DNA from: a virus
Length of the DNA: 64,000 nucleotides
Strand: one strand, 5' to 3'
Virus record (IMG/VR): IMGVR_UViG_3300042731_004976
Coordinates: 64,001 to 128,000 of that record
The notes below the pieces were generated by a model. The model did no database searches. It was not told the DNA's origin and worked only from the letters and a program-made list of their open reading frames with translations. Each line of letters opens with the position of its first letter. Within the stretch, counting starts at the first letter, position 1. Shown one piece after another: positions 30,353 to 60,568 of the stretch. The position numbers were made by a program, and so were the translations under genes.

Positions 30353-30667
30353 ATGAGTGATCTGACCTCGTTGGCTCCGTGCCCCTTTCCCCAATGCGGT
30401 TCCTCCCGTGTCGTGATGAAGGGGTCATTCGGTCTGCCGTCTTCCTACTGGGTCCACTGCAAGGACTGCGAAGCGACTGGTCCGAAAACTCCCACAATCG
30501 AGGAGGCGGCGGCTCGTTGGAACGGTGTCTTGGTTCGAGGGCGTGCCGACGGATTAGAGTTAGCTGCGGATTCCGTTAGTGTGGTGAGCATGAACGGCGA
30601 CCAGCGAGCCGTCATTCGAGCACGGAACGCCATCTATGAAACCCGAGATCGATTGGAGTCCGCATGA
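30353..30667 (+). CDS. Lar-family restriction-alleviation-like Zn finger
   Basis: LAPCPF..CG...WVHCKDCEATGP.....EAAARWN. Confidence 0.7.
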   Translation: MSDLTSLAPCPFPQCGSSRVVMKGSFGLPSSYWVHCKDCEATGPKTPTIEEAAARWNGVLVRGRADGLELAADSVSVVSMNGDQRAVIRARNAIYETRDRLESA

Positions 30668-31239
30668 AACGCCGTACGTTCCTCCAAGGCTTGAGTGTTC
30701 TTCCTGCTGTGGGGAGTGTTGCAGAAGCTCCCCGGGCGGCGGAAGTTCCTTTCAATCACGCGCTGACGGACGACGAGGCCAAGATCGTCTCCATGAGCCA
30801 GTTGCTCGTTCAGAACTTTCGCGACTACGTGAAGCAAAAGGGTTGGGATCTCCCTGTAGCCGAGCACTTGTTCATAGAGCAAAACGCGAGGCTCTTCTGC
30901 CAGTACCTCGCTGATTGGACGCTTAGCGACCCTCTATTCGAGGAGCACGACCGTTCCCTGTTCGTTCCCTCGGTGCTATGGGTCACGACTGTTCCCGGAG
31001 TCTCCCGCAAGCTGCGCGTCCCTTGGATTGGAGACGAGGAGGCGGATCCTGAGGAGGTGTGGGCGAAAGAAGCAGCCCTCGATGTTCAGCACGAGATCAG
31101 GAAGGAGGCCGAGGAGGTTGGTCGTCTTCAGGGGTACCTGATTTATCTCCCTCCGTTCTTGCCTCCGTCCTACTTGGATCCCAGGGACTTCTCTGTCCAT
31201 CGGCGGTTCTTGCTCAACTACACGAAGGTGCGTGCGTGA
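30664..31239 (+). CDS. truncated T4 gp23-type major-capsid-like protein with Tat-like N-terminus
   Basis: MKRRTFLQGL; VSRKLRVPW..DVQHEIRKE; YLPPFLP..LDPRDFSVHRRFLLNY versus recalled gp23 DPKNFQPVMGFKTRY. Confidence 0.55.
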   Translation: MKRRTFLQGLSVLPAVGSVAEAPRAAEVPFNHALTDDEAKIVSMSQLLVQNFRDYVKQKGWDLPVAEHLFIEQNARLFCQYLADWTLSDPLFEEHDRSLFVPSVLWVTTVPGVSRKLRVPWIGDEEADPEEVWAKEAALDVQHEIRKEAEEVGRLQGYLIYLPPFLPPSYLDPRDFSVHRRFLLNYTKVRA

Positions 31240-31497
31240 TGCCGATCTGGGGAGCGTCGTTCCACGAACCTGACGAGACTCCTGAGGAGCGCGAAGCGCG
31301 CTTTGCGGAGATACAGAAGCAGATCGAGAAGGTTGTTGCGAAGGTCATCAAAGAGAACGCAGAGCTGTCCGCTTTGTGGGCGCACGCAACGGGCCGTATC
31401 GTCGGAGAGGTCATGGTGCAGGAGCACTTCCCTCCGGAATGGATCGAGCAGGTGCAGCGGGCTGTGTTGTCCTGCCTTGCGAGGGAGTCGGGTATCA

Positions 31498-32010
31498 ATG
31501 AAACGTGACGCGAGGGGGAACTATCACCCTGAGGCGTTCTGCTTGATGCAGTACGCAAGCAAGGACGGGTCTGAACGTGAGTTGATCTGGAACTCTCGCG
31601 ACGGTGTGACTCCCTTCTGCATCCTCTCTCGCAGCAGTGTGGAGATGCAGCACGTCAACTGGAAGCAGGATCGCTACGTTCCGCAGCACCTTCCGCGTGT
31701 AGGGGATCGCATCTTCGTGGATCTCACCTTCGAGCGGGCCATCGAGACGCAGCGTCAGAACGTCGAGCGCTGGTGGGACGAAGAGGAGATGCCCATGAAG
31801 GACGACCCTGAGTTGGGGCCCATGGGCAAGGAGGGTGCTGCACGACACCTGGCTCACGAGGAGATGAAGCAGTTCCAGGTGAACGCGACGGCCGAGGAGC
31901 TGATGGAGTACGGTGCAGGTCCGCCAGATCTCGTCGAGGTGACCGAGGAGCTTTTGAAAAGTCTGAAGACCATGAAGCGCCCAGAGTACCGCCCGAGGCG
32001 TTTCGCGTGA
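31498..32010 (+). CDS. hypothetical protein
   Basis: MKRDARGNYHPEAFCLM...WNSRDGVTPF; coupled to neighbouring genes. Confidence 0.65.
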   Translation: MKRDARGNYHPEAFCLMQYASKDGSERELIWNSRDGVTPFCILSRSSVEMQHVNWKQDRYVPQHLPRVGDRIFVDLTFERAIETQRQNVERWWDEEEMPMKDDPELGPMGKEGAARHLAHEEMKQFQVNATAEELMEYGAGPPDLVEVTEELLKSLKTMKRPEYRPRRFA

Positions 32011-32348
32011 TCCCCGAGGCGCTCCCGTGTCCCTATCCCAAGTGTAGGTCGATCAACGTCGAGTTCGATCCTGACATCGTGGGAGTGTCCTGTCACGATT
32101 GTCTCCTGTCGGGACCGTGTTTCGGGAAGCAGGGATTCGATAGCGACGAAGCCGAGATGGCGGCGGCTATCGATGCTTGGAACCTACTTCCCCGCGGGGG
32201 CTTGCAGATCCTGTGCGACTCCTGCGGTGAGTTGTTAGAGGAACCTGGGGCTCTCCTCTTCGGACCTCCGAACGCATTGGGGGACTCTGCGAAGAGGCAC
32301 ATCTGCAAGACGTGCGTGCTCTCGAAGTACGATCTGAAGAAGCGGTGA
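32007..32348 (+). CDS. second Lar-like Zn-finger protein
   Basis: LPCPYPKC...VSCHDC..SGP...AAIDAWN, plus an extra CDSC...HICKTC. Confidence 0.6.
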   Translation: MIPEALPCPYPKCRSINVEFDPDIVGVSCHDCLLSGPCFGKQGFDSDEAEMAAAIDAWNLLPRGGLQILCDSCGELLEEPGALLFGPPNALGDSAKRHICKTCVLSKYDLKKR

Positions 32349-32733
32349 AGACCTGGCTGGAGGTGACGGATAGGTGCCACTTCGTCAAGCGCGTGCGACG
32401 CGGTAACCTCTACCGCTGGTATCTTCACGGCGGGTCCGAGTTTCGAGAAGCCGTTTTTCGAGAAGACGACATCTATCAAGGCGAGGACGGTGGGCCTCTC
32501 ATCGTGTGCCAGGTAGCAGCAGCAACCCAAGGGATCTACAGTGGCAAGTTCTTCCGACCCCCAGCCAGTACTGCGACCTGAAGTCGGTTCGCAGCTCCTT
32601 CGAGACGGGCGCTTCTACGTAGTGACGCAGGTCATGCCAAGGATGACCCGGTATACCAAGAAGAATCAGGACACACGCATCGAGGGGTACACACTCGGAT
32701 TGCGTCTGGCGCTCCCTACCGATTCGCCTCTCG

Positions 32734-32762
32734 TTGACTATCGGTAGACCACCTGGTACGTT
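32734..32762 (+). promoter_or_regulatory. sigma70-type promoter, leaderless
   Basis: TTGACT-17-TACGTT-6nt-ATG (32769). Confidence 0.75.
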
Positions 32763-32768
32763 CCGGCC

Positions 32769-34220: not shown

Positions 34221-34430
34221 CGACTTCCTTGGGTATGCCTGGCTTCATGCCCGCACCCCTCGTGCTCTCTTCGCTGTGGAGGATATCCAGCGTTTGCACA
34301 AGCTAGCTGGTACCGCTTGTCCCGAACTTCCAGAGAAGGGGTTCCTGGCCATGCGCTCGGACTACGCGAATCCGCTCATAGAGCGGGCTCGTGTGCGTAG
34401 GCGTCTCGTGGTATTACCTGGAGGCCGATC

Positions 34431-34601
34431 ATGAAGCGTCGAGCAGTTCTACAGTTCCTGTCCTCGTTGCCCTTGTTGGGATGGCTCGCTCCCGAGAAGG
34501 CTTCTCCTGCACCCGCAGCCGTGCCTTTGGAGGAGGACTACCAGTTCATCATGATCAGTGTAGTGGACGACCCTGTAGATCCTCGTACGAGGCTTCAGTG
34601 A
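34431..34601 (+). CDS. small peptide with Tat-like signal (56 aa, below the ORF-track cutoff)
   Basis: Read by hand: MKRRAVLQFLSSLPLLGWLAPEKA...; GGAGG RBS; ATGA/GTGA coupling. Confidence 0.55.
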   Translation: MKRRAVLQFLSSLPLLGWLAPEKASPAPAAVPLEEDYQFIMISVVDDPVDPRTRLQ

Positions 34602-34797
34602 TCTACGCGCCCGAGTACAAGCCGGAGAACCCGAACAAGTGGGAACACCTCAACCACTTCCTTGGTTCCTCTCAGTCGCACGAAGATCTGAAGCAGCGAA
34701 CGATGCTCTGTCTCATGGACATGTCGTTTCCGCGGCCTGACATCCTGGTGGTTCTGGAACGAACCAAGTGCAAGAACGGTTGGGAGGACTGAGGGGC

Positions 34798-35289
34798 ATG
34801 ATGAAGATCGTCGAGGGGTTGGAGCTGAAGCCTCAGGAGTTTTCTGCGGACGTGCGGGCTTTGCGTTACGTGCCGCTGAGCGAAGCCAAAGGAGTGGTAG
34901 TTCGCCCGGAGGGGTGGAACGCTGCCAACGACGTACCTCGTTCATGGACTCGTCCAGGGCATCTCTATCGAGGGATCACGGACGACGAGTTCCGCTTCAT
35001 CAAATCGCATGGTGTGGTCCGCAGCAACGAGAAGTGGTCGATCCGTGGCGAAGGTACGAACTTCGCTGAGGACGCAGATGAGGCCGAGAGCTACGTGAAC
35101 TACGGACGCACCGATCCTCGCAAGACCGGGAAGCCGACGTACGTCATCGAGGTGAAGAAGGACGAGAGCTTCAAGCGATGGCCAGACGGCTACTGGAAAA
35201 CTCCCGAGGTCTCCAAGAGCGCAATCACCCGCGCGTGGAAGATGGTGGGCGAGGGCGGTGAGGTCGTAGCCTACCTGATTCGGATCTGA
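34798..35289 (+). CDS. ADP-ribosyltransferase-like protein with shared N-terminal leader
   Basis: LYRG..., GTNFAEDADEAESY, YVIEV resemble ART fold strands; leader MKIVEGLELKPQEF..VRALRYVPLSE. Confidence 0.55.
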   Translation: MMKIVEGLELKPQEFSADVRALRYVPLSEAKGVVVRPEGWNAANDVPRSWTRPGHLYRGITDDEFRFIKSHGVVRSNEKWSIRGEGTNFAEDADEAESYVNYGRTDPRKTGKPTYVIEVKKDESFKRWPDGYWKTPEVSKSAITRAWKMVGEGGEVVAYLIRI

Positions 35290-35836: not shown

Positions 35837-36649
35837 ATGAACCTGACCGAAGAGTTCCGCGAGCTTGCTGGCCTCAAGTCCCGTCTTCCGAGTCTTCAGG
35901 AGGCGCGTAGGCTTCGTGAGGCCGATGAGATCAAAGTCAACCGTTTGGAGCGGTTTGTCGATGCGACAGAGAGGGAGCTTCGGCAGTTGAAGCACTCGCT
36001 CGATCTCTACAAGAAGAACCCGCAGAAGTACGCGCCCCAGCTCAAGAACTTCAAATCTTCGGTGAACACCATCATGGGCGTAGGCCGCATGGTCATGCGA
36101 ATGATGGGGGAGGCGTCCCCAGTCTCTGAGGGGGTCAGCTCGATGTCCGTGGGGACCTGGTACAAGCAGGTGTTCCGCGGGGGTGAGGAGATCTACTTCA
36201 AGGCGAAAGAGCAGCAGAAGAACGGTGGCTGGAAGGGAATGATCGTTCAGTACGCAGACAGCGGACATCCCAAGAAGGCCAAGCAGACATCCGTTCGCTC
36301 GAACGAGTTCCGTCTCTGGACGGAGGTGCCCGCTTCCAACGTCCCCAAGGACGTGAGAGCCCGTTTGGGCGAGAGCCTGGGGGAAGCCATCGTCCAACCC
36401 TCGAAGCTGTTCAAAGCCATGCAGGACGCCGACAAAGCCCTGGTCGATGCCCGCGTCAAGGTGCGCAAGGTTCACGAGATGTTGACCGACGTCTACAACG
36501 ATGCCTCGGGAACGTCGTGGACAGATAACTATCAGGACTCAGACGTCAAGCACACGCGCGACGAGTTGTACGACTTGGATCGTTCATTCGGCTCCGCGAT
36601 GGACAGCATCGCTCGTACGAGCAAGGATCTCAAGAAGAAGACCGTCTGA
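35837..36649 (+). CDS. probable internal head protein or polyprotein
   Basis: MNLTEEFRELAGL N-terminus; domains separated by x-x-E-rich linkers (LQE, LRE, VSE, LGESLGE). Confidence 0.5.
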   Translation: MNLTEEFRELAGLKSRLPSLQEARRLREADEIKVNRLERFVDATERELRQLKHSLDLYKKNPQKYAPQLKNFKSSVNTIMGVGRMVMRMMGEASPVSEGVSSMSVGTWYKQVFRGGEEIYFKAKEQQKNGGWKGMIVQYADSGHPKKAKQTSVRSNEFRLWTEVPASNVPKDVRARLGESLGEAIVQPSKLFKAMQDADKALVDARVKVRKVHEMLTDVYNDASGTSWTDNYQDSDVKHTRDELYDLDRSFGSAMDSIARTSKDLKKKTV

Positions 36650-36653
36650 GCCC

Positions 36654-37463
36654 ATGCTCATCGTCGAAGGTTTGGAGCTACGCCCTGAGGCGTTCCGACG
36701 CCAGGTGCGGTCGCTTCGGTATCTTCCAGAGGACCGTGAGCTGAACCTTGCCCAGTGGGGGTTGGAAGGGCTCATGATGGGGAAGCCGACGAAGCTCTAT
36801 CACGGCACCACGCGCCTGTTCCGGAAGTTCGATCTGAAGCAGAGCCGAGACGAGCTGGTCAAGGACTACTACGGTAGCGGGATCTTCCTGACTCCTTCAC
36901 GTCGTGTGGCTGCCGACTACGCCTACGCGAATCGGAACAAGGGGTTCCCGAAGGACGTCATCGACAAGCTAAAGCGCAAGAACAAGAACGCGGGGGCGTT
37001 CCTGCAAGCGCTGTACGACGAGGGGGATAGAGCTTGGGACACCTATGGGGAGAAGCACGGGATCGTGACCGCTGTTGAATGGGATCAGCATCTTGGGGGG
37101 TTGGATGCGAACACTATCGGAGACGTCGCGGGGTACATTCTAGGAAGCAAGGTGAAACCCCTATCTAGCGGCGGCGGTGACTTCAGCCTGTTCAATTACA
37201 CAGCTATAGGACTGCCGGATTACGTTTACGACAACCTGGAAGAGTTGGGCATCGACTCGAAGCCATATCGTCCCAAGGTCTACACAGTGATGGCCACGGT
37301 GCGTAATCCGCTGGTCACGCAAAGCCAGGCCAAGGCACGAGGGGCGCGGGCTTCAGGCTACGATAGCGTTATCTACTACGGTCCTTTCTTGGTGCAGGAC
37401 GTTCCTGAGGTAGCCGTGTTCGATCCCAAGAAGGTTCGGATCACCAAAATCGACGTGCTGTGA
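36654..37463 (+). CDS. ART-PolyVal-type ADP-ribosyltransferase with shared leader
   Basis: LYHGT...FD...GSGIFLT....A..YA, VY.V...NPL, GYDSVI, EVAVFDP; leader MLIVEGLELRPEAF..VRSLRYLPE. Confidence 0.75.
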   Translation: MLIVEGLELRPEAFRRQVRSLRYLPEDRELNLAQWGLEGLMMGKPTKLYHGTTRLFRKFDLKQSRDELVKDYYGSGIFLTPSRRVAADYAYANRNKGFPKDVIDKLKRKNKNAGAFLQALYDEGDRAWDTYGEKHGIVTAVEWDQHLGGLDANTIGDVAGYILGSKVKPLSSGGGDFSLFNYTAIGLPDYVYDNLEELGIDSKPYRPKVYTVMATVRNPLVTQSQAKARGARASGYDSVIYYGPFLVQDVPEVAVFDPKKVRITKIDVL

Positions 37464-41624: not shown

Positions 41625-41903
41625 ATGCGTAACCCGTTCGAATTCAATCCGGTCCGGCTTCCTCCTGGAAGCCTGCGCCACGTCGGTTCCTACAAGGGGC
41701 GGGACGGCAAGGTGCTCAAGATCATGCGGTACCCGACCGCGTGGGATCCGAACGACGACGGTCCCGTGGGTTGGGAGCAAGACTGGAGCCCCCTCCCTAT
41801 GGGAGAGATCAAACGTGAGCCCATGAAGGTGCCGACCGGCGGCCTCTTCTACCTGGACTACAAGTACGAAAAGGACTCCCGTGGAAAAGCAGATACTGAA
41901 TAG
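41625..41903 (+). CDS. small protein carrying a gp23-type capsid motif
   Basis: EPMKVPTGGLFYLDYKY versus recalled T4 gp23 QPMNSPTGQVFALRAVY. Confidence 0.5.
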   Translation: MRNPFEFNPVRLPPGSLRHVGSYKGRDGKVLKIMRYPTAWDPNDDGPVGWEQDWSPLPMGEIKREPMKVPTGGLFYLDYKYEKDSRGKADTE

Positions 41904-50426: not shown

Positions 50427-50879
50427 TCAGAAGTCGTTCGGGCGAAGATCGCTCTCACCCGTCAGGTATTCCAGGAGATCTACTCGTCCGCCGAACCCTG
50501 CGCGGATGGTCTTCCTCTTGAGTGCGTGGTGTGCGAAGTATCGATGCCAGCCGTCGAGGATGACTGGGATTGCGTAGACACGACCGCCTCCGCAGATGCA
50601 GTCGATCGAGATGGGAGCCTCCAGGTCTTCGGGGCTTTGCATGAGGTAGCGGATGCGCGCAGCATGCGTTTCCGCAGTCCACTTCTTGGGAGCGCTGTGT
50701 CCATCCGGAGTGTAGCGGGAAGGTTCCAGGGAGGTGCCTTCTTCCACCATACTCGGGTAAAAGCCAACGCCCCAGATGTCGTCCTCATCACAAGGACCGG
50801 CGCCGAAGCATTCGTCGAGGCGAGCAAGGATGATGTCGTAGACTGGATCTACTTCACGGTCGCTTGCGGTTGGATCCAA
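50427..50879 (-). CDS. ParB/Srx-like domain protein (start uncertain)
   Basis: PISID......VILDGWHRYFA. Confidence 0.5.
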   Translation of the reverse strand: MDPTASDREVDPVYDIILARLDECFGAGPCDEDDIWGVGFYPSMVEEGTSLEPSRYTPDGHSAPKKWTAETHAARIRYLMQSPEDLEAPISIDCICGGGRVYAIPVILDGWHRYFAHHALKRKTIRAGFGGRVDLLEYLTGESDLRPNDF

Positions 50880-51115
50880 AACATCGTCGCTACCAGATAC
50901 GCTCCCTTGAAGGGCGTTGGTTTGACGATCACTAAGCGCAGTCCGTTGTGCTCTCGCCATGTCGAGTCCGTGTCGAACGTATCCTTGCCCTTCTCCAGGG
51001 CTTCCGCAACGTGGAAGTCGGTGATGCTCTGTTCCTCCGCCTTGGCTTGCGCGTGACGGGTGAGTACGATTTTGTGCCTCCCGTAGCCCGGTACGTCCTC
51101 GTAGAGGTACTTCAC
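50849..51115 (-). CDS. DUF4258-like small protein
   Basis: LTRHAQAK.....IT...V..AL..G; GTGA-coupled to the NMNAT fusion gene. Confidence 0.5.
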   Translation of the reverse strand: MKYLYEDVPGYGRHKIVLTRHAQAKAEEQSITDFHVAEALEKGKDTFDTDSTWREHNGLRLVIVKPTPFKGAYLVATMFWIQPQATVK

Positions 51116-52215
51116 GCACGCCCCTCGCGAACGTCCGTGGAGCTGATGTCCCATCGGCCTTTGACGGGGTAGAATAGGAAGTCCGAGTTCAAGGAGAGCG
51201 TCTCGTCGTTCAAGAGGTCTCGCATCGTGGTGTACCCCCGGTCCGGGATCTCTCGTCCTACGACGTAGAACCGTACTCTCTCTTCGACGAAGGGGGCCAG
51301 GTTCTCCTCGGGGGTCTTGTTGTCCCACGTCATGAGACGCAGCAGGGCGTCTGCACCGATGACGATGTGCTTCACGCCGGAGGCGATCTTGTCCTCATAG
51401 AGGGGTTGCCCTCTGGTGAAGATCACACTGTGTCCCTTGAGCATCTTCGCCCGCTGCAACATCTCGGGGACGGTGAGCGCTGGCTTGTGCGGAGGCTCTG
51501 CCTCGATGCTGAATAGCACCGGACGTCTGTGCTCTTCTTCGATCTGCTCGGCGATGCCGAAGTGCCCTTCGTGTGGCGGGTTGAACGCTCCGGGGAAGTG
51601 TGCGTACTCCGAAGCACGCCTGTGGCTCAGGTTGGTGAAGGGACGCAAGAAGAAGACGTCTCGAATGTCGATGGGGTCGCTCAGTTCGTACCAGTCGAAG
51701 ATCTCTTGGGTGATGGGCACGAGAGGAAGACCAAGGGCGTTGCGTAGCGCGTTGAGTCCTAGAAGATCGCAGGTCTCTCCCTCGTCCTCACGTCCTGTGC
51801 TCTTGCTTTTGTTCAGCACGGCGTAGAGCAAAGTGCACTTGTCTTCGCTTACCGTTGCGATGTAGACCCGGTGATCCCCCTTGTGCTCCCGGGTGGTGCC
51901 GACGACGGCCGTCATGCCTACACCGATCGTCCTCTTGTTTCCCGGTTTCCACGCACGGCTGTATGCCTCCATGGCGAGCTGGATAGCCGTGGTCTCGGTG
52001 CATGCTCGTTCGGGCTCGAACCCTAGGAAGTCCGCTGTGTCCTCCGCCGCGTAGGGGAATGCTGCGCCCACGAGGAACTTGGAGCACCCGGGGACGTCCC
52101 ACAGCAGCTTCTGGAGGCCTGCCCCGGCCCCCGTACAGACCACGTAGACCTGCGGGGGCTCGGGGAGGTCACGGATCTCCGTGACTGCGTCGATGGTGTT
52201 CACTGGACCGCTCAC
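51112..52215 (-). CDS. CinA/PncC-like domain fused to a nucleotidyltransferase (NMNAT-like)
   Basis: N-terminal TGAG....VPGCS.F...PY; C-terminal PGAFNPPHEGH (HxGH), IGAD..RL, DISSTDVR. Confidence 0.8.
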   Translation of the reverse strand: MSGPVNTIDAVTEIRDLPEPPQVYVVCTGAGAGLQKLLWDVPGCSKFLVGAAFPYAAEDTADFLGFEPERACTETTAIQLAMEAYSRAWKPGNKRTIGVGMTAVVGTTREHKGDHRVYIATVSEDKCTLLYAVLNKSKSTGREDEGETCDLLGLNALRNALGLPLVPITQEIFDWYELSDPIDIRDVFFLRPFTNLSHRRASEYAHFPGAFNPPHEGHFGIAEQIEEEHRRPVLFSIEAEPPHKPALTVPEMLQRAKMLKGHSVIFTRGQPLYEDKIASGVKHIVIGADALLRLMTWDNKTPEENLAPFVEERVRFYVVGREIPDRGYTTMRDLLNDETLSLNSDFLFYPVKGRWDISSTDVREGRA

Positions 52216-53585
52216 GCGGTCTCCTTTGCCCTCTTGCGGACGTCGTCGAAGGTGAGGGTTCGGAGGATCTTGCCGTTCTCGTAGACGACCTCCAGTAGAT
52301 CCCCGTGCTTGACCTCGGGAACGGTGCGGAGCTGCCCGCCCTCGCGAACGAGAGACATGCGACCCTTCTTGCTGACCTTGCCGTGGTCAGTAGCAGGATC
52401 CTTGAAGACCTCCACATCCTTGCCGGCAACGCGCGCCCAGGAGCACTTGAATGCGAACTTCTGGGTGTCCCGATCCATTTTCTGGAGCAGAGCCCCGCCG
52501 CATCCGAAGGCGATGTTCGAGGCCGAGTAGCCGTTGCTGAGCACGACTCGAAGGATCTCCTGGATCGAGTCCTCGTTCACGCCGTCGCCTTGGATGAGCC
52601 GGAACTCGGGAGGGAGCACCTTGTAGCCTTTGGTGTTCTTGGTCATGCCCACCTTGCGCTCCAAGATCTGAAGGCACTTGAGCACGACGTCCGGCGGGTT
52701 GCCCGAGTCCGGACGGATGATGAGCGTACCGCCCGACTCCTTGACCAGCTCACGCAGCTCTTCGCCCCAGAGATTTTCCACAGCGCTGAAGATGTCCCAC
52801 GAGTCGGACACGCAGGCGTACAGCTTACCCTCGCCTGCGTACTGCTTGACCATGTTCCGGTAGGCGTCGGCCTCGTGAGCCTTGCCCCACATGGTCATCG
52901 TGGAGTGCTCGGCCGCGGGAATCGAGAAGCCTGCCATCTCACAGTCGTAGAAGTGGTTGGCGTAGCGCACTCCTTCGACCGTGTCCGATCCCATGAAGTT
53001 CACGAGGTGGGCCATGCCTCCGATACCCGCAGCTTCCCGGGACGTCACGCCACGACCACCGAAGTCGTGCAGCTTGAAGTCGATCTCCGCGGCGGGATCG
53101 TCTGCGGACTCCACGAGAGCCTCCCAGATGATCCTTCGGATGTTGTGACTCTGCGTCGCAACCGTGATCGGGTACCAGAGGCGCACCATTTGGGTTTCGA
53201 GCCAGGACACGACCCAGAACAGCTCTGGGTCCGTGCTCTCGACGCTGAGCAGGATGTTCCGCGTGGGCACCACCAGCCCCTCGGGAACGGCGCGGATGCG
53301 TACGGGCAAGTAGCCGTTGTGCTTGGTGACGACTTTCATCCAACCCTCGCGATTGAAAGGCTCCCCGTGAGCCGCGAAGAACTCGGCCGCCTCGTTCACG
53401 TCCGCTGCGGTGATCGGCTTCGAGAGGTACTCGCGCATGAACCACTGGAGGCCGAAGAAGACGGTCTGCCCGTAGCGCCCGCCACGCGACTCGAAGTACG
53501 AGTACATCGCTTCGGTCTCCGGAGGGTACTGAAGCCAGTGGCTGGCCTTGTAGCTGTCGGTGTCGAGAATGAGGTTGAAGTCCAT
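52212..53585 (-). CDS. nadV: nicotinamide phosphoribosyltransferase
   Basis: LDTDSYKASH, LHDFG.RG, GSDT, SIPAAEHS, VSDS, IRPDSG, IQGDG, FG.GG.LLQ..DRDT..FAFK, SKKG. Confidence 0.96.
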   Translation of the reverse strand: MDFNLILDTDSYKASHWLQYPPETEAMYSYFESRGGRYGQTVFFGLQWFMREYLSKPITAADVNEAAEFFAAHGEPFNREGWMKVVTKHNGYLPVRIRAVPEGLVVPTRNILLSVESTDPELFWVVSWLETQMVRLWYPITVATQSHNIRRIIWEALVESADDPAAEIDFKLHDFGGRGVTSREAAGIGGMAHLVNFMGSDTVEGVRYANHFYDCEMAGFSIPAAEHSTMTMWGKAHEADAYRNMVKQYAGEGKLYACVSDSWDIFSAVENLWGEELRELVKESGGTLIIRPDSGNPPDVVLKCLQILERKVGMTKNTKGYKVLPPEFRLIQGDGVNEDSIQEILRVVLSNGYSASNIAFGCGGALLQKMDRDTQKFAFKCSWARVAGKDVEVFKDPATDHGKVSKKGRMSLVREGGQLRTVPEVKHGDLLEVVYENGKILRTLTFDDVRKRAKETA

Positions 53586-53598
53586 GATTCGGTTCCTT

Positions 53599-54303
53599 TC
53601 AGATCTCGAAGACGAGCCCGTTCTTCACGGCCTTGTCGTAGGCCCGCTTGTCGAAGCGGTAGAGTTGAGCGGGACGGTGACTCGTCCCCTGTTGCATCCC
53701 GTTCTCCACGAGGATGTTCATGGCGAGGATCTTCTTGCGGAAGTTCCGCTTGTCGATCTCACGCCCCAGGATCGTTTCGTACAGCTTGCGGAGCTGCCCG
53801 AGCGAGAATTCCTTCGGCAGGAGGTTGAAGCCGATCGGTTCGTACGTCAGCTTCCCCCTCAAGCGCTGTACGGCCGTGCTGAGGATCTTGTTGTGGTCGA
53901 AGGCCAGCTCGGCTTTCATCGCTTCGTCGAGGGGCATCCACTTTGCTTCGGCGGCGTCGCTGGCTCCTTCCACGAGCATGGAACGCACCAGCCCGAAGTG
54001 GGCCACGGTGATGACACGCCCCCGAGGATCTCGGTCCTTGTCGCTGAACGTGTAGAGCTGCTCCAAGTAGTCGACCGTGGCGCCGGTCTCCTCCTCCAGC
54101 TCACGACGTGCTGCGGCTTCGATGTCCGGGTCTTCGTCGATGTCTAGGAATCCGCCAGGTAGTGCCCACTGACCCTTGAAGGGCTCGCCGCCCCTCTGGA
54201 TCAACAGCACGTTCAGCGAGGGCTCTAAGTAGGACTGGTGGAGACCGAAGAGCACGATATCGGCTGTTACGCTCGGTCGCGGGTACTTGTAGGTGTGAGC
54301 CAT
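53599..54303 (-). CDS. nrtR: NrtR Nudix-related transcriptional regulator
   Basis: Nudix box WALPGG...AARRELEEETG, RDPRGR, LAFDH; C-terminal wHTH LPKEF...LYE.ILG..IDKRNFRKK...RPA.LY. Confidence 0.93.
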   Translation of the reverse strand: MAHTYKYPRPSVTADIVLFGLHQSYLEPSLNVLLIQRGGEPFKGQWALPGGFLDIDEDPDIEAAARRELEEETGATVDYLEQLYTFSDKDRDPRGRVITVAHFGLVRSMLVEGASDAAEAKWMPLDEAMKAELAFDHNKILSTAVQRLRGKLTYEPIGFNLLPKEFSLGQLRKLYETILGREIDKRNFRKKILAMNILVENGMQQGTSHRPAQLYRFDKRAYDKAVKNGLVFEI

Positions 54304-54344
54304 GGGGTAATAATCACACTAACTTAGTGTTCTGTCAACACAAA
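54302..54344 (-). promoter_or_regulatory. nrtR operon promoter overlapped by two tandem 21-bp NrtR-like boxes
   Basis: Minus strand TTTGTGT-TGACAGA-ACACTAA, G, TTAGTGT-GATTATT-ACCCCAT (both GT-N7-AC); TTGACA-17-GATTAT-6nt-ATG. Confidence 0.75.
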
Positions 54345-54469
54345 AGTTCGTGTGCTCCTAACCCTAAGTAATCATGGGTCTCTTTCGCCTCTTCCCCCAG
54401 GCAGGTCCTTCCGATACGCTCGCTGCTTCCAGGGCCCGAGAGGGCCCCCTAGAGACGAAGGAGCTGAGA

Positions 54470-55519
54470 ATGGAACAACGGACGCTGCGCCCCACGGTCC
54501 CGGCCGCGGAGGCGATTTTGGGCAAGTACTTCCCCGTGCTCGACAACGGGTTCATCGCCCTGAAGGACTACATGGGGTGCGATGAGGGGATCGAGGAGGC
54601 GGCTCGCCTCTCGTACCAAGGAGGCACGAGACAGACGAGCGAGACACGGGGGCTGGTTCGATACCTACGCCGCTTGAGGCATACGAGTCCGAGCGAGATG
54701 GCGGAGCTGAAGTTCCACGTATCTATGCCGATCTTCGTGGCGCGCCAGTGGGTCAGGCATCGTACGGCCTCCCTCAATGAAGTCAGCGCGAGGTACTCGC
54801 TGCTTCCCATGATCTTCTACACGCCGAAGAAGGAAAACTTCCTGCCGCAAGCGAAGAACAACAAGCAGGGTCGAGAGGACGGCGCCTCGTTCGAAGACGA
54901 GGGGTTGTACGAGCGTACGGTCATCGAGTGGAACAACGAGAGGAAGCGTTCGAGCGGTCTCTACGAGAACCTTGCTGCGGACGGGGTTGCGCGTGAGCTG
55001 GCTCGCATCGACTTGCCCTTGTCGACGTACACCCAGTGGTACTGGAAGGTCGACCTGCACAACCTGCTGCACTTCCTAACGTTGCGAGCCGACGAGCACG
55101 CTCAGTGGGAGATCCGTCAATACGCCAACGTCATCGTGGGCATGGTGAAGCGCCTCGCTCCCCTGACGTACCAGGCGTGGATCGACTACGAGCACATGAG
55201 CGCTCGTTTCTCCCGCATGGAGATGGAGGTGCTTCAGGAGCTGGTGTCAGTTCTCACACAGGAAGAGGATGGGCAAGCGGGTGTGGACACGGCTGCGGGG
55301 TCCCCAACGTCGGGGAACTTCATCTCGCACGAAGAACTCGTGAAGCGCATCGGTTCGAAGCGTGAAGTTCAGGAGTTTTACGCGAAGCTGACGAAGCGCT
55401 ACGTGCGTCCCGGCTTCGACATTTCGGAAGCGGATGCCAAGCCTCCGGAGTGGTTCGAGGAACGCATGGCCAACGCGACTCCGAAGATCGATGCAGCTCC
55501 CAAGGGTGTTGCTACGTGA
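54470..55519 (+). CDS. thyX: flavin-dependent thymidylate synthase
   Basis: AARLSY, HTSP.E, PIFVARQWVRHRTASLNEVSARY, ELARIDLP, LHFL.LR...HAQWEIR. Confidence 0.96.
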   Translation: MEQRTLRPTVPAAEAILGKYFPVLDNGFIALKDYMGCDEGIEEAARLSYQGGTRQTSETRGLVRYLRRLRHTSPSEMAELKFHVSMPIFVARQWVRHRTASLNEVSARYSLLPMIFYTPKKENFLPQAKNNKQGREDGASFEDEGLYERTVIEWNNERKRSSGLYENLAADGVARELARIDLPLSTYTQWYWKVDLHNLLHFLTLRADEHAQWEIRQYANVIVGMVKRLAPLTYQAWIDYEHMSARFSRMEMEVLQELVSVLTQEEDGQAGVDTAAGSPTSGNFISHEELVKRIGSKREVQEFYAKLTKRYVRPGFDISEADAKPPEWFEERMANATPKIDAAPKGVAT

Positions 55520-56028
55520 ACCCGGTTCCTACGGTGGACCTCGATATTGAGATCGTGCACATCGATGCACGCTCTCGTCAGATCACGTCGGTTCTGGCAG
55601 TCCCGCTCTACAGGAACCTTCGAGCTTTTGTGGAGCGGCAGGGCTGGCGTTTGGCGAAAGAGCAGTGGGAGGCGTACCGAGTGCTCACGGAGCACTTCTG
55701 CCTGGAACTGAATCGTACGGACGAGGGGTTCTTGTTTACAGGCGCTCCTTCTTTCACGGTGCCCGAGTTGGGGGAGGCGTTCTTCAACTACCATACGGAC
55801 AAAGCGTTCTTGGAGAGTTTCGACCCCGTGTACCTCGCTGGTGTAGGTAAGGGTATCGCGAGAGAGGTTCAGAGGGAGATCGAGCGCGTGCAGCGCACGC
55901 TCAGTCCTATCAAGGAGTACCGCCTCTTCCTGCCCCCGTTCCAGCCTCCTCTCTTGGCAGGGGACTCGTTGGACGGGCTCTGGTTGGGGAGGGAGCTGAT
56001 ACTCCAGCGAAGCCGCGAGTCCTCGTGA
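55516..56028 (+). CDS. truncated T4 gp23-type major-capsid-like protein
   Basis: IDARSRQITSVLAVPLYRNLRA...LTEHFCLELNR versus recalled gp23 IEAKSRQLKAAYSIELAQDLRA...LATEIMLEINR. Confidence 0.6.
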   Translation: MNPVPTVDLDIEIVHIDARSRQITSVLAVPLYRNLRAFVERQGWRLAKEQWEAYRVLTEHFCLELNRTDEGFLFTGAPSFTVPELGEAFFNYHTDKAFLESFDPVYLAGVGKGIAREVQREIERVQRTLSPIKEYRLFLPPFQPPLLAGDSLDGLWLGRELILQRSRESS

Positions 56029-56067
56029 TTCCTTGACAATCGCAGCCCTACCTAATAGGGTTGCCGG

Positions 56068-57240: not shown

Positions 57241-57499
57241 CCATCATCAATCTCGACTACGGCGGTTGGTCCCGAGAGGATTGGGAGCGCTCCCTCCCCA
57301 AGCTGACTCCAGGCAAAGTCTGCGTTGTTCCGATGCGGCACCCCGACAACGACGATACGTGGGGTGTGGGTATCTACGACCCGTACAAGATCGAAGGTAC
57401 CCGTGGAAAGGGACATCGCCTTCGAGGCATGCTCAAGGGGGTCAAGGTTACGACCTTCGGGGAAGCCGAAGCCGCAGTAGCTGCGTTGCGAGGAGAAGC

Positions 57500-58111
57500 A
57501 TGAGCGTCACAGGAGACATGCTGGCTACGGCGGATGCGGAAGCCTCGTACTACAAGGCGGTCGCTATTGATCTTCAGCGTCGCTTGACGGTTCTTCTAGC
57601 TGTTACCCGAGATGCGAGACAAGCCGCGGATCTTCCCTTGGACCTGGGTCCTCGGTTGCAGGACGCTATTCAGAAGGCCGAAGAGAGCTACACGGAGCCC
57701 GACGGCCCGGCGCGCTCGTACTTGAGAGGCACGCGCTTCACCGTCGAGCAGCTCATAGCCGAGATGGACTTGGGAGGGTCTCTCGGTCTGGGTCAGTCCT
57801 TCGTCGAAGTGTGCAACGAGTTCGACCTGGACGCACAGGTCGCTGCCGGAGCCCTCGTGGAGCACTACGCTTCAATGGAGGAGTTGAAGGCTGCGCGTCA
57901 GAAGCGGCTTGCGCTCCTGAACGATAGGATCGACGAGGAGTATGCCAAAGAGCCCAGGGACGAGGCCAAGATCGATTCACTACGGCGCGAAGCAGCCGAC
58001 CTCATTCGAGTGCTTTCGGAGGACGAGTTGGCTCCTATGAAGGAGCGCTTTGCTCGTCTCAAGCAGATCCTCGATGAGGGGCTTCCCAAGGAGCACCTCG
58101 CTGGAGACTAG
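57500..58111 (+). CDS. DUF433-like domain protein
   Basis: LRGTRFTVEQLI......EV..EF.L. Confidence 0.5.
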   Translation: MSVTGDMLATADAEASYYKAVAIDLQRRLTVLLAVTRDARQAADLPLDLGPRLQDAIQKAEESYTEPDGPARSYLRGTRFTVEQLIAEMDLGGSLGLGQSFVEVCNEFDLDAQVAAGALVEHYASMEELKAARQKRLALLNDRIDEEYAKEPRDEAKIDSLRREAADLIRVLSEDELAPMKERFARLKQILDEGLPKEHLAGD

Positions 58112-58497
58112 TGATGGAGATCTGCAAGAAGTGCGGCAAGCGTCCGGTAGGTTTAGGTTTGGCTTCCCTCGCGAAGCGCTGTGCCGAGTGCTATGCGGGA
58201 GCGAAGGAGGGCCTCGTCATGGTTTGCTTCGAGGGCGACGTGTCCGTACTCGATCAGATTCGTTCGAGCGGGCGGCGAGGTATCCTTCGATGACGACCGC
58301 GGAGATACGAGGGTTCTTCGATAGGATTCGGAAGAAGTGGCCTCCCGAAGAATTCGATCTGACAATCATCGGTCCTCGTACCGATGGTGGCTACGTCGTC
58401 ACTATCCGGCGTACGCGCAGTTTCGCAGATATACATCGATTGGAGGCTTCTAGCTATCGGGGCGTCTTGCTGAAAGCGCTGGGTGCTTCTGGAGGGT

Positions 58498-59322
58498 ATG
58501 ATCGTGCCTAAGCGGGTCGTTGTAGTCGTCAAACGCAGCTCGTGGTCTCAGCGTGTGTCCTCCGGGGAACCACTTCCGGCCGGTTGGAAGCGTAAGGCGT
58601 TAGCAAGCCACAAGCAGCAGCAGAGGATCAGAGATCGAGTCCTTGACCTGATCCGTGGCTTTGGTGTGAAGCCTTGGATCGTTGAAGGCGCAGAGACTGC
58701 TTTCAACGCGCGAGGTGCGGACCTTGTGGTGTCTGTTGGAGGTGACGGTACTTTGCTTTCAGCGAGCCACTACGTTGGCAAGGAACCATTGCTCGGCATC
58801 AACAACGACCCGGGACGGAGCGAGGGACACTTCTGTGTCGATACCAGCGATGACCTCAGCCGCACGTTGGAGCAGGCGTTGAAAGATCCTTGCACGCACA
58901 GTGTGACTCGCATGCGTGTCTCCGTAGGAAGACGGGTGGTGGCAGATCGAGTTCTCAATGAAGCTCTCTTCAGCCACACGTGTCCCGCAGCCATGACGCG
59001 CTTCCAACTCGGGAGCTACAAGTACGCTTGTTCTGGGGTGTGGGTAGGAACGGGTGCCGGCTCTACGGGTGCGCTGGCCTCTGCCGGGGGCGAGGCGATG
59101 CCGTTGTCTGCACACAAGCTGCAAGCCGTCATTCGAGAACCCTTCAAGGAATACGATGGCAACGTCATCCGCTACCAGAGTCGATCGATTCGTCTCACGA
59201 GCCTTACTGACGATGCGACACTCTACCTGGACGGACCGTTCCTCCGCGTACCTGTGGGTCTGGAAGACGTCGTCGTGTTCGATCGATCTCCGTCTCCTCT
59301 GAACCTGGTGATGAACCCATGA
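58498..59322 (+). CDS. nadK: NAD(+) kinase
   Basis: VSVGGDGTLL, LGIN..P..S.G.F, LNE, GV.VGTG.GST..LASAGG, LDG. Confidence 0.9.
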   Translation: MIVPKRVVVVVKRSSWSQRVSSGEPLPAGWKRKALASHKQQQRIRDRVLDLIRGFGVKPWIVEGAETAFNARGADLVVSVGGDGTLLSASHYVGKEPLLGINNDPGRSEGHFCVDTSDDLSRTLEQALKDPCTHSVTRMRVSVGRRVVADRVLNEALFSHTCPAAMTRFQLGSYKYACSGVWVGTGAGSTGALASAGGEAMPLSAHKLQAVIREPFKEYDGNVIRYQSRSIRLTSLTDDATLYLDGPFLRVPVGLEDVVVFDRSPSPLNLVMNP

Positions 59323-59620
59323 CTCCCGAGGAAGGCGTCGAGTTTCAGGTGGGTTCGGAGCCTGAGCTGGCTCCAGGAGTGCGGGGTGTCGTGTTCGACA
59401 CGGAGAAGGGCATCTACGTTCCTCTCATTTTGGCCGAGGAACCCGGTAGCGGAGCGGTTTCCGCTTGGCTCGACACCTTACCCGCAGATCGCCGCGTTGT
59501 TTTTCCCAACGTGCTAAATGGTAAGCTACGCACGATGCTACAGCGTCGAGGATTTCACGAATCCCGAGAGCTGGATCCGATGAGCGGTGATCTGGTAGAG
59601 ATCATGGAGCGCTTAGGCTC

Positions 59621-59995
59621 ATGACGCACGGTAGTACGCCAAGAGCGCGAGGAAACGCGCTTACTCCGCAGCAAAGCTACTTGCTGAACCTAGCTTGTCG
59701 GGGTCTTGTAGATGCTTTCGGTCCCAACATCTTCCAGGTAGGCTCCTCGATGAGCCGACGGGACTACCGAGACGTAGACGTTCGGTGCATTCTGGATGAT
59801 GCGGAGTTCGAGCACCTGTTTCCCTCTTGCTCGGAGCGCCCGCACGCCAACGCCTTGTGGAAGGTGCTCTGCGCTGCGATTTCCGACCATCTCTCTCGAA
59901 TCACGGGCCTGCTCATCGACTTTCAGTTCCAGCAGCGGACGCAGGCCAACACAGAGTACCCGGGACAGATCAGAAGCGCGCTGGGAGTCAGATGA
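59621..59995 (+). CDS. minimal nucleotidyltransferase-like protein
   Basis: VGSS....YRDVDVR (GS..DxD), IDFQ. Confidence 0.6.
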   Translation: MTHGSTPRARGNALTPQQSYLLNLACRGLVDAFGPNIFQVGSSMSRRDYRDVDVRCILDDAEFEHLFPSCSERPHANALWKVLCAAISDHLSRITGLLIDFQFQQRTQANTEYPGQIRSALGVR

Positions 59996-60082
59996 TGCCG
60001 ATGAAGCTGCGTGGATCTTTAACGGCGCCCCTCCTTCCGGGCGATGGACGTACAACTGGTTCTGGGAACTGAAAGAGAGACA

Positions 60083-60568
60083 ATGCAAAACCTACTGCCC
60101 TACCGCGAGCTTCTGCTGAAGAACATCGAGAGCGTGGTGAAGCTCGCCGGAAACGATGCCTACGTGCTGCGAACCTCTACGGAGGTCACCGCTACGCTGT
60201 GCGAGCTGATTCAGATCCCTGATGAAGTGCTCATCCAACCACTAGAGGCTCCCCTCGGAGTCGTCACTACGGCCGAGCACTACAAGCCGGGTTGGTTCCA
60301 AGACTACGATCCGTGGGAAGGAGAAGGCATCCCTCACAAGTTGATTCAGGCCGAAAGAACACATCTTCCTTGGCAACCTGCCCAGGAACCGAGCTGGGAG
60401 GAGGTAGCCCGCGGAATCGAAGAGTCGATCAAGAAGGTTCTGAAAGGCACTCCACCCGCGTCGGGGCAGAGTGCGGCGCTGGTCTACTCCCCGTACATGC
60501 TTCTTCTTTGGACTACGGATTCGCATCGGCCCTACTACACGCGGCACGCTCTGACGTGGATCGCGTGA
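60083..60568 (+). CDS. miniaturised T4 gp23-type major-capsid-like protein
   Basis: IQPLEAPLGVV, IQAERTHL, AALVYSPY, YYTRH in the same order as gp23 VQPMNSPTG, IEAKSRQL, AGIYYAPY, FKTRY. Confidence 0.5.
   Translation: MQNLLPYRELLLKNIESVVKLAGNDAYVLRTSTEVTATLCELIQIPDEVLIQPLEAPLGVVTTAEHYKPGWFQDYDPWEGEGIPHKLIQAERTHLPWQPAQEPSWEEVARGIEESIKKVLKGTPPASGQSAALVYSPYMLLLWTTDSHRPYYTRHALTWIA

What the first reader, a model, noticed from the sequence alone, without database searches (positions are those of the whole stretch)
30664..60568. Dispersed family of miniature major-capsid-protein (T4 gp23-type) fragments: candidate capsid decoys or mimics
Seen in sequence: four small ORFs scattered among early/accessory genes carry the most conserved gp23 motifs. 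They are 30664..31239, 41625..41903, 55516..56028 and 60083..60568 (92-191 aa). Against T4 gp23 recalled from memory: 55516 IDARSRQITSVLAVPLYRNLRA...LELNR aligns without gaps to IEAKSRQLKAAYSIELAQDLRA...LEINR. 30664 has SRKLR and DPRDFSVHRRFLLNY (gp23 DPKNFQPVMGFKTRY). 41625 has EPMKVPTGGLFYLDYKY (gp23 QPMNSPTGQVFALRAVY). 60083 has QPL..P.G, IQAE...L, VYSPY and TRH in gp23 order. 30664 and 55516 also resemble each other (NFRDYVKQKGWDL vs NLRAFVERQGWRL; YLPPFLPP vs FLPPFQPP). All four are intact, most are translationally coupled to neighbours, and each is far too short to build a capsid. Established: major capsid proteins trigger defences (T4 Gol peptide, which includes the QPM..PTG segment, activates Lit; CapRel senses a capsid protein). 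Inference: these are early-expressed capsid-epitope decoys that jam capsid sensors, or dominant-negative inhibitors of competing T4-like phages. I am not aware of such a multi-gene family being described.
Basis: partly seen in the sequence, partly recalled or inferred. Interest (0 to 1): 0.92.

Follow-up and report, generated by a model that had tools for sequence, protein, structure and literature searches.

The report
Stripped-down capsid-protein copies in a phage
Two of the four small genes, plus a third outside the window, are real cut-down descendants of this T4-like phage's major capsid protein; most relatives carry an export-type leader. A third gene carries one short capsid peptide, the fourth is a chance resemblance, and the proposed "decoy" role is untested.

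Summary
The window is part of a 168-kb uncultivated phage with a T4-type (Gp23) major capsid protein (MCP) encoded outside the window.

**Capsid-derived family (real).** ORFs 30664-31239 and 55516-56028, plus a paralogue at genome 143112-143852, belong to a rare, unnamed family of 180-280 aa.
- The family keeps the MCP E-loop strands, spine helix and C-terminal P-domain strands.
- It lacks the insertion domain and the A domain.
- Support: hhalign probability 99.2%, E 1e-19. 13 of 17 members hit Pfam Gp23. The module profile hits T4 gp23 in the PDB at E 2e-8. The AF2 model matches only HK97-fold capsid proteins.
- Most members, including 30664, start with a twin-arginine-type leader. That fits export better than a cytoplasmic decoy role.

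**ORF 41625 (probably real, separate case).** It holds a 20-aa copy of the MCP "QPM..P.G" strand. An orthologue in one relative keeps the motif. Another relative has an independent, recent copy: 98 nt, 85% identical to its own MCP gene.

**ORF 60083.** No support anywhere.

**Function.** It is not shown. The decoy and dominant-negative ideas remain untested rivals. No member was found in 50,697 deposited phage genomes. An overlapping-window note in this scan had already flagged ORF 30664.

The parts
30664..31239 (+). Class A mini-MCP (191 aa, P0001). Residues 1-22 are a twin-arginine-type leader with an AxA site. Residues ~114-188 are the MCP-derived strand, shortened spine helix and C-terminal P-domain strands.
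   Evidence: Full-length paralogue of genome 143112-143852 (E 8e-13). 36% identical over 200 aa to metagenomic member P0009 (E 1e-27). Family alignment. blastp to own MCP 459-486 at E 1.5e-4. Pfam TAT_signal 17 bits on residues 1-35, below the 22.7-bit cutoff.
30664..30729 (+). Twin-arginine-type leader of P0001: M-K-R-R-T-F-L, a short hydrophobic stretch, then A-E-A.
   Evidence: Read directly from the sequence. Sub-threshold TAT_signal hits. The same leader type occurs on most family members and on two unrelated proteins of this genome.
55516..56028 (+). Divergent, leader-less class A member (170 aa, P0003). N-terminal helix pair and spine helix are retained. The C-terminal strand motif is degenerate.
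   Evidence: A family HMM built without it scores it at E 2.5e-8 in the six-frame ORFs of the genome. blastp to P0009 at E 1.3e-5 and to P0001 at E 2e-5. AF2 pLDDT 67 with confident helices and low-confidence strands. Its GTG start overlaps the thyX stop codon.
41625..41903 (+). Class B small protein (92 aa, P0002) whose C-terminal end carries a copy of the MCP first E-loop strand motif.
   Evidence: blastp to own MCP 98-117: 45% over 20 aa, pairwise E 2.7e-5 and proteome-wide E 0.014. An orthologue in related phage G001 keeps the motif. Strong RBS. No homologue in the 5.8-billion-protein search.
41805..41870 (+). The MCP-like peptide inside P0002 (residues 61-82).
   Evidence: Alignment A4 with the MCPs and with the G001 and G002 small proteins. 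The equivalent own-MCP segment aligns to T4 gp23 97-133.
60083..60568 (+). ORF named in the finding but not MCP-related: an orphan of unknown function.
   Evidence: blastp to MCP E 0.039, rank 16 of 259, within the shuffle range. No hit to the MCP or family HMMs at E 10. No match in five related phages. Atlas: low-confidence model and no informative neighbours.

Best explanation
Shown. ORFs 30664 and 55516, together with a third paralogue outside the window (genome 143112-143852), belong to a rare, unnamed family of 180-280-aa accessory proteins. The family occurs in uncultivated phages with a T4-type capsid protein and descends from that major capsid protein. It retains, in capsid-protein order, the two E-loop strands, the spine helix and the C-terminal P-domain strands. 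The ~135-aa insertion domain and the ~130-aa A domain are replaced by short loops. The proteins therefore cannot build capsomers in the normal way.

Inferred. Most members, including 30664, carry an N-terminal twin-arginine-type signal peptide. The folded half-capsid domain is therefore most likely exported to, or anchored at, the cell envelope. Tat is the route that accepts domains which fold in the cytoplasm. There it would act as a non-assembling binding module. My best guess is a role in superinfection exclusion or in sensing material released by superinfecting relatives. Leader-less members such as 55516 would stay in the cytoplasm.

Separately, ORF 41625 carries a 20-aa copy of the first E-loop strand of the MCP, in the neighbourhood of the T4 Gol region. 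MCP segments have been captured by accessory genes repeatedly in this phage clade. ORF 60083 is a chance resemblance.

My estimates: capsid descent about 0.9, export about 0.6, the specific envelope role about 0.2.
For: Enrichment: five gene products match the own MCP at pairwise E < 1e-3, against 0.2 expected from shuffles.

Family: phmmer of the paralogue against 1.84 billion representatives finds about 15 proteins of 180-280 aa sharing the C-terminal module (sequences; alignment).

Homology to the MCP:
- hhalign of family against MCP alignment: probability 99.2%, E 1.2e-19 over 52 columns.
- At lower stringency the alignment skips MCP ~319-445 and resumes at the C-terminal strands.
- The family HMM hits the own MCP at E 1.6e-25 in two collinear pieces.
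- The module profile hits only the MCP in 10 related phage records. It matches in two blocks about 500 nt apart, at E 1e-16 and E 1e-7.
- 13 of 17 members hit Pfam Gp23, best E 1.5e-12.
- The module profile hits T4 gp23 266-319 in the PDB at E 1.6e-8.

Structure:
- AF2 model: pLDDT 81, pTM 0.70.
- An exhaustive structural search of 48,161 chains gives only HK97-fold capsid proteins and encapsulins in the top 50. The best is T4 gp24: Z 6.9, rmsd 3.5, 121 residues.
- The ESM Atlas shape search gives only a Gp23 cluster: TM 0.50 over residues 53-246.

ORF 55516: E 2.5e-8 to a family HMM built without it.

Leader: an M-x-R-R-x-(F/V/L)-L motif, a short hydrophobic stretch and small residues at -3/-1 occur in 13 of 17 members. 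TAT_signal is the recurrent but sub-threshold HMM hit on the leaders, seen in 5 of 10. The same leader sits on two unrelated proteins of this genome, which indicates a modular targeting signal.

Context: helicase, ThyX, NAD salvage, ADP-ribosyltransferase and Lar-like genes surround the ORFs in the window. Homologues sit in long runs of small unannotated ORFs. None lies in a head module.

Class B.
Against: - Export is inferred from sequence only. Every Tat HMM score is below the curated cutoff, and the host is unknown.
- No member was found in ten related but incomplete phage records. The genes are therefore dispensable and sporadic, and no conserved partner gene exists.
- Structural Z-scores are modest (< 8), and Foldseek against the PDB found nothing significant.
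- The envelope role is a guess with no direct evidence.
- Some members (55516, P0011) lack the leader, so one mechanism may not fit all.
- No expression data and no dN/dS could be obtained.
Confidence: 0.55

Rival explanations
1. First reader's reading. The proteins are cytoplasmic capsid-epitope decoys. They display conserved MCP surfaces or peptides early in infection and occupy capsid-sensing defences (Lit with Gol and EF-Tu, CapRel, MCP-binding Avs) without activating them.
For: - The copied segments are the most conserved parts of the MCP.
- The 41625 motif lies in the stretch that aligns to T4 gp23 97-133.
- The Gol region is described as a 29-residue, EF-Tu-binding stretch and the most conserved part of gp23 (PMC3014915).
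- Lit and CapRel are said to sense MCP through short motifs (bioRxiv 10.64898/2026.01.04.697583).
- MCP segments were captured independently at least twice more in the clade.
- Neighbours include a Lar-like anti-restriction gene and NAD-salvage genes.
- Leader-less members exist.
Against: - 13 of 17 class A members carry an export-type leader.
- The A domain is missing, so sensors that wrap the whole HK97 fold would not see a normal target.
- By the published Lit mechanism, a faithful Gol mimic should activate Lit rather than block it.
- The genes are not conserved among close relatives.
- Two literature searches found no described phage-encoded capsid decoy.
Confidence: 0.15
2. Assembly modulators. 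The mini-MCPs and MCP peptides bind full-length MCP, either the phage's own or that of a co-infecting relative, through retained strand and P-domain interfaces. They would act as dominant-negative inhibitors, folding or assembly chaperones, or membrane tethers for prohead assembly.
For: - The retained elements (E-loop, P domain) make inter-subunit contacts in HK97-fold shells. This is established knowledge of the fold.
- Residues invariant in the MCP block are largely kept in the family.
- An MCP homologue that redirects capsid assembly is known: SaPIbov5 Ccm, entry 7rwz, which appears among the structural hits.
Against: - An export-type leader would remove most members from the assembly compartment.
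- The genes lie far from the head module and are absent from close relatives.
- Acting on the phage's own MCP would be self-harming unless tightly timed.
Confidence: 0.12
3. Evolutionary by-product. Pieces of the highly conserved MCP gene are scattered by illegitimate recombination in the plastic accessory regions and are kept simply as convenient folding units. Present functions have nothing to do with capsids or capsid recognition.
For: - The G002 case is a bare 98-nt patch, 85% identical at the DNA level to that phage's own MCP gene, with 18 of 20 identical-residue codons unchanged. It is embedded in an otherwise unrelated 177-aa ORF.
- Distribution is sporadic.
- There is no conserved neighbour.
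- ORF 55516 looks partly degenerate.
Against: - The class A family is old and diverse: 25-50% identity, intact in about 15 clusters, with MCP-invariant residues retained.
- The 41625 motif is the best-conserved part between two orthologues that are otherwise 34% identical.
- Among this genome's large proteins, only the MCP shows several such copies in the all-against-all comparison.
Confidence: 0.15
4. Nothing real: the resemblances are chance matches picked by eye from many ORFs.
For: This holds for ORF 60083. None of the four ORFs passes Pfam Gp23 alone.
Against: Shuffle control, profile-profile E 1e-19, the Pfam, PHROG and PDB hits of family members, and the structural searches.
Confidence: 0.03

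Closest known systems
T4 gp23 / Pfam PF07068 (T4-type HK97-fold major capsid protein)
   Same: Homologous strand, spine helix and C-terminal P-domain strands in the same order. MCP-invariant residues are largely kept.
   Different: No insertion domain and no A domain, and less than half the length. It has an export-type leader, lies in accessory regions and is present in several divergent copies.
T4 gp24 vertex protein (a capsid-protein paralogue kept beside gp23)
   Same: A second gp23-derived gene in the same genome. It is the best structural match: 1yue, Z 6.9.
   Different: gp24 is a complete HK97-fold shell subunit encoded in the head module. These proteins are truncated and non-structural by context. 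This genome shows only one Gp23 match above the Pfam cutoff.
SaPIbov5 Ccm (island-encoded MCP homologue that redirects helper capsid size)
   Same: A capsid-protein homologue used for something other than being the main shell protein. It is among the structural hits: 7rwz, Z 5.4.
   Different: Ccm is a complete HK97-fold protein that co-assembles into the shell. No binding to MCP is shown here, and the A domain is absent.
T4 Gol peptide (segment of gp23 that binds EF-Tu and activates the Lit protease)
   Same: The ORF 41625 motif and the G002 177-aa protein copy the MCP stretch that aligns to T4 gp23 97-133. Gol is described as the most conserved gp23 region (PMC3014915).
   Different: Gol is part of gp23 itself, not a separate gene. 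The exact Gol residue range is from my memory only (about 93-122). On that range ORF 41625 would overlap only its end. EF-Tu binding is untested.
Encapsulins
   Same: HK97-fold proteins exapted for a non-viral role. Several are among the top structural hits, at Z 6.5-6.8.
   Different: Encapsulins keep the A domain and form closed shells. No sequence relation to them is shown here.

Membership tests
T4-type major capsid protein (Pfam PF07068 Gp23) | Each ORF alone gives a significant match to the Gp23 profile | tested here: not met
   None of the four ORFs, nor the outside paralogue, hits PF07068 even at E 10. PHROG gives no head-protein hit for them.
T4-type major capsid protein (Pfam PF07068 Gp23) | Homology to gp23-type MCPs at the family (profile) level | tested here: met
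   hhalign probability 99.2%, E 1.2e-19. 13 of 17 members hit PF07068, best E 1.5e-12. T4 gp23 in the PDB at E 1.6e-8. PHROG 138 major head protein for P0013 at E 8e-13. This applies to 30664 and 55516 as family members, not to 60083.
T4-type major capsid protein (Pfam PF07068 Gp23) | Complete HK97 fold, including the A domain and the T4-type insertion domain | tested here: not met
   The alignment skips MCP ~319-445, and the region between the two E-loop strands. The two blocks lie ~500 nt apart in ten MCP genes but are adjacent in the family. Proteins are 170-280 aa, against 502.
HK97-fold proteins (structural class) | Spine helix, P-domain sheet and E-loop hairpin arrangement | tested here: met
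   AF2 pLDDT 81. All top-50 hits of the exhaustive search are HK97-fold proteins, but Z is at most 6.9. Atlas: only a Gp23 cluster, TM 0.50. Foldseek against the PDB was not significant.
Twin-arginine (Tat) signal peptides | RR consensus motif, moderately hydrophobic h-region, small residues at -3/-1 | tested here: met
   Read from the sequences of 30664, the outside paralogue and 11 metagenomic members. Absent from 55516.
Twin-arginine (Tat) signal peptides | Score above the curated cutoff of PF10518 or TIGR01409 | tested here: inconclusive
   Best score is 17 bits against a 22.7-bit cutoff. TAT_signal hits 5 of 10 isolated leaders (E 0.006 to 2.7) and recurs among them, but all scores are sub-threshold.
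Twin-arginine (Tat) signal peptides | Tat-dependent export | not testable with these tools
   Needs reporter fusions in wild-type and tat-deficient cells.
Gol-type Lit activators / EF-Tu-binding gp23 peptide | Sequence correspondence to the Gol segment of gp23 | tested here: inconclusive
   The ORF 41625 motif matches own MCP 98-117. This lies within the stretch that aligns to T4 gp23 97-133. The Gol residue range was not verified from a paper.
Gol-type Lit activators / EF-Tu-binding gp23 peptide | Binding to EF-Tu domains II/III and an effect on Lit cleavage | not testable with these tools
   Biochemical assay needed.

The most novel reading that the evidence does not exclude
This phage clade repeatedly converts pieces of its own major capsid protein into stand-alone accessory proteins: an exported half-capsid domain and cytoplasmic Gol-like peptides. 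These would act on machinery that recognises capsid proteins. They would serve as antagonists of capsid-sensing immunity (Lit/EF-Tu, CapRel or Avs type) or as exclusion factors against related phages. That would be a capsid-mimicry counter-defence class not yet described.
Probability: 0.17. Interest if true: 0.9.

Novelty: new variant of a known kind. Interest (0 to 1): 0.62.

Why it matters
HK97-fold capsid proteins are known as shell builders (capsids, encapsulins, vertex paralogues, size-redirecting homologues). A family that keeps only the E-loop, spine helix and P-domain core, loses both large domains, gains an export-type leader and sits among host-takeover genes would be a new kind of exaptation of the most abundant viral fold.

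It also gives a natural minimal P-domain construct for folding and interface studies.

If the short MCP peptides prove to bind EF-Tu or capsid sensors, they would make the idea of phage-encoded capsid mimicry directly testable with existing Lit, CapRel and Avs assays.

The limits are real. The family is rare (about 15 clusters among 1.84 billion representatives), the phage is uncultivated, and no function is shown.

Tried and rejected
- **MCP binding:** Complex prediction of own MCP with the mature mini-MCP gave no verdict (score 0.00). This is neither for nor against binding.
- **Foldseek:** the search against the PDB found nothing significant. The exhaustive aligner was needed instead.
- **Relatives in IMG/VR:** The search for related loci with the family alignments failed because no stretch was conserved enough. 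Single members found no relatives there.
- **Word-based homologue searches:** P0001 and P0002 returned only themselves.
- **Megablast of the window against GenBank phages:** no match.
- **dN/dS:** the only retrievable variant pair encodes identical protein. Other pairs are too diverged.
- **Internal duplication:** I tested whether the family's N-terminal half is a second copy of the strand-plus-spine-helix unit. It is not supported (E 0.022 to the MCP, E 0.14 to the family's C-terminal half).
- **T4 late promoter:** TATAAATA is absent from the whole genome, so it gives no timing information.
- **Three long proteins in the representative search** (P0015, P0020, P0024): these are repeat or WD40-type spurious matches to the non-MCP part.
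- **The 99-aa protein at genome 57456-57755:** it has an MCP-like C-terminal peptide with pairwise E 1.5e-4 and Pfam Gp23 E 0.079. It has no orthologue in relatives, and the relatives show no further C-terminal MCP copies. I leave it as possible only.
- **Conserved neighbour genes:** none found across six loci.

Full report
**What the window is.** The window is bases 64001-128000 of a 167,992-bp IMG/VR virus record. The record has one gene above the Pfam Gp23 cutoff. It is a 502-aa T4-type major capsid protein (MCP) at genome 30181-31689, outside the window. Related uncultivated phages have MCPs 69-88% identical. The nearest deposited phage MCP is only 35% identical. The part of the window holding the finding is a plus-strand block of accessory genes. 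These include a UvrD-type helicase, an ART-PolyVal ADP-ribosyltransferase, ThyX, NAMPT, an NMN adenylyltransferase-like gene and Lar-like restriction-alleviation genes.

**Checking the observation.**
- All four ORFs exist and are intact. ORFs 30664 and 55516 overlap the stop codon of the gene before them. ORFs 30664, 41625 and 60083 have Shine-Dalgarno-like sequences.
- None of the four hits Pfam Gp23 or a PHROG head family on its own.
- I then asked whether the resemblance to the phage's own MCP exceeds chance. Of about 259 crude gene calls, five matched the MCP at pairwise E < 1e-3. Thirty shuffled MCPs gave 0-2 such hits, mean 0.2.
- The five are a 246-aa protein outside the window (E 7.5e-8), ORF 41625 (3e-5), ORF 30664 (1.5e-4), a 99-aa protein at genome 57456 (1.5e-4) and ORF 55516 (7e-4).
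- ORF 60083 ranked 16th at E 0.04, inside the shuffle range.
- In the all-against-all comparison, the MCP is the only large protein with several such small partners.

**A real family.**
- ORF 30664 is a full-length paralogue of the 246-aa protein at genome 143112-143852 (E 8e-13).
- A full HMMER scan of that protein against 1.84 billion representatives found about 15 proteins of 180-280 aa.
- They share a leader of the form M-x-R-R-x-(F/V/L)-L, a pair of helices, a short strand, and a strongly conserved C-terminal module.
- None carries a functional name.
- A family HMM built without ORF 55516 scores that ORF at E 2.5e-8, and the own MCP at E 1.6e-25 in two collinear pieces. Member P0009 matches ORF 30664 at E 1e-27 and ORF 55516 at E 1e-5.
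- So 30664 and 55516 are members. ORF 55516 is the most divergent and lacks the leader. Its model keeps the helices but not confident strands.

**Descent from the capsid protein.**
- Profile-profile comparison of family and MCP alignments gives probability 99.2%, E 1.2e-19 over 52 columns. These cover the second E-loop strand and the spine helix, MCP 264-315.
- With a looser setting, the same alignment jumps over MCP ~319-445 and resumes on the C-terminal P-domain strands, MCP ~453-487.
- In ten related phage records, the 88-position module profile finds only the MCP. It always matches as two blocks about 500 nt apart, at E 1e-16 and E 1e-7.
- Thirteen of 17 members hit Pfam Gp23, best E 1.5e-12. 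Two tested members hit PHROG 138, major head protein.
- The module profile hits T4 gp23 residues 266-319 in the PDB at E 1.6e-8, with a weak collinear match to the gp23 C-terminal strand.
- tblastn of member P0013 against 50,697 deposited phages hits 1,725 MCP genes. No full-length family member appears.

**Structure.**
- The AF2 model of the 246-aa paralogue has pLDDT 81 and pTM 0.70. It shows a hairpin, two helices, a second hairpin, a long helix and three C-terminal strands.
- Foldseek against the PDB was not significant.
- The exhaustive aligner over 48,161 chains returned only HK97-fold capsid proteins and encapsulins in its top 50. T4 gp24 led with Z 6.9, rmsd 3.5, 121 residues. The Z-scores are modest. 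The homogeneity of the list is the argument.
- The ESM Atlas shape search returned only a Gp23 cluster, with TM 0.50 over residues 53-246.
- Taken together, the family is an MCP from which the insertion domain (between the two E-loop strands) and the A domain have been removed.

**The leader.**
- Thirteen of 17 members start with a twin-arginine motif, a short Pro/Gly-containing hydrophobic stretch, often a basic residue, and small residues at -3/-1.
- Ribosome-binding sites place the start codon directly before the RR motif.
- TAT_signal is the HMM that recurs on the isolated leaders (5 of 10), but always below threshold.
- The same leader is on an unrelated 247-aa protein (genome 141063-141806) and on a short ORF at window 34431-34598. 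It therefore behaves as a portable targeting signal.
- Export is inferred, not shown.

**ORF 41625 and recurrent capture of MCP pieces.**
- Residues 61-82 of ORF 41625 match own MCP 98-117, the first E-loop strand. The match has 9 identities over 20 aligned residues, at a proteome-wide E of 0.014. That is borderline alone.
- Related phage G001 (MCP 88% identical) has a 106-aa orthologue. It is 34% identical overall and keeps the motif at its C-terminal end.
- Related phage G002 has an unrelated 177-aa protein with a much closer copy. Its match to the MCP segment has E 2e-10 and its Pfam Gp23 hit has E 5.5e-5.
- At the DNA level the G002 copy is a 98-nt patch, 84.7% identical to that phage's own MCP gene (E 4e-26). 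Eighteen of 20 identical-residue codons are unchanged. It is therefore a recent copy.
- The own-MCP stretch aligns to T4 gp23 97-133. A review describes Gol as a 29-residue, EF-Tu-binding segment and the most conserved region of gp23 (PMC3014915). Its exact residue range is from my memory only.

**How it most likely works.**
- Shown: descent from the MCP, loss of the two large domains, non-structural gene context, sporadic distribution and several copies per genome.
- Inferred: the leader sends the pre-folded domain through Tat to the envelope. Tat would make sense for a domain that evolved to fold in the cytoplasm.
- A protein lacking the A domain cannot form normal capsomers, so I read it as a binding module rather than a shell part.
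- My best guess for its role is envelope-level exclusion or sensing of related phages. This has no direct support.
- The decoy reading stays possible for leader-less members and for the short peptides. It is weakened by the leaders and by the published Lit mechanism, in which a Gol-like peptide activates rather than blocks. The assembly-modulator and by-product readings are also open.

**Comparison with what is known.** The nearest known things are gp23 itself, the gp24 vertex paralogue, the SaPIbov5 Ccm size-redirecting MCP homologue, encapsulins and the Gol peptide. None of them combines a truncated fold, an export-type leader and an accessory-region location. Four literature searches found no description of such proteins or of phage-encoded capsid decoys. 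Those searches cover only open-access text.

**Verdict.** The capsid descent is well supported. The decoy interpretation is untested and, for most members, disfavoured by the leader. I rate this a new variant of a known kind, of moderate-to-high interest. The rating is limited by rarity, lack of a cultured host and lack of functional evidence.

Noticed in passing
window 34768-35289 and 35837-36649; also genome 46604, 129928, 130953, 134462, 153443, 154599: At least eight otherwise unrelated proteins share a ~30-aa N-terminal leader (M-K-I-x-E-G-x-E-L-D-P...). It has L/I-x-E motifs like the cleavage sites of T4 head-targeted proteins. This may be a portable capsid-targeting or delivery leader.
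   Followed up: partly
window 34431-34598: A 55-codon ORF with a good RBS and the same twin-arginine-type leader as the mini-MCPs stops early. An overlapping frame (34391-34792) stays open, so this may be a frameshifted or very short leader-bearing gene.
   Followed up: partly
genome 141063-141806 (outside the window; L002:1063-1803): A 247-aa protein with the same leader type but an unrelated Cys-containing body. No Pfam or PHROG hit.
   Followed up: partly
window 30353-30667 and 32007-32348: Two paralogous small genes flank ORF 30664. The first matches Lar-like restriction alleviation proteins (PHROG 599 at E 1.3e-9; Pfam PF14354 just below cutoff).
   Followed up: partly
L052:1237-1770 (-), related phage G002: A 177-aa accessory protein contains a 98-nt patch 85% identical to that phage's own capsid gene. 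This is direct evidence of a recent copy of an MCP segment into another gene.
   Followed up: yes
genome 57456-57755 and 47276-47581 (outside the window; L004, L003): Two ~100-aa proteins carry a short peptide resembling the MCP C-terminal strand (P-Y-I/V-P-L-Q-V type). Pairwise E values are 1.5e-4 and 0.008. No orthologues were found in five relatives.
   Followed up: partly
whole genome: The T4 late-promoter box TATAAATA is absent from all 168 kb. Late transcription signals must differ from T4.
   Followed up: no
window 50427-55519: A compact NAD-related cluster (NAMPT and an NMNAT/CinA-like gene on the minus strand) lies next to thyX. An ART-PolyVal ADP-ribosyltransferase lies at 36501-37463.
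   Followed up: no
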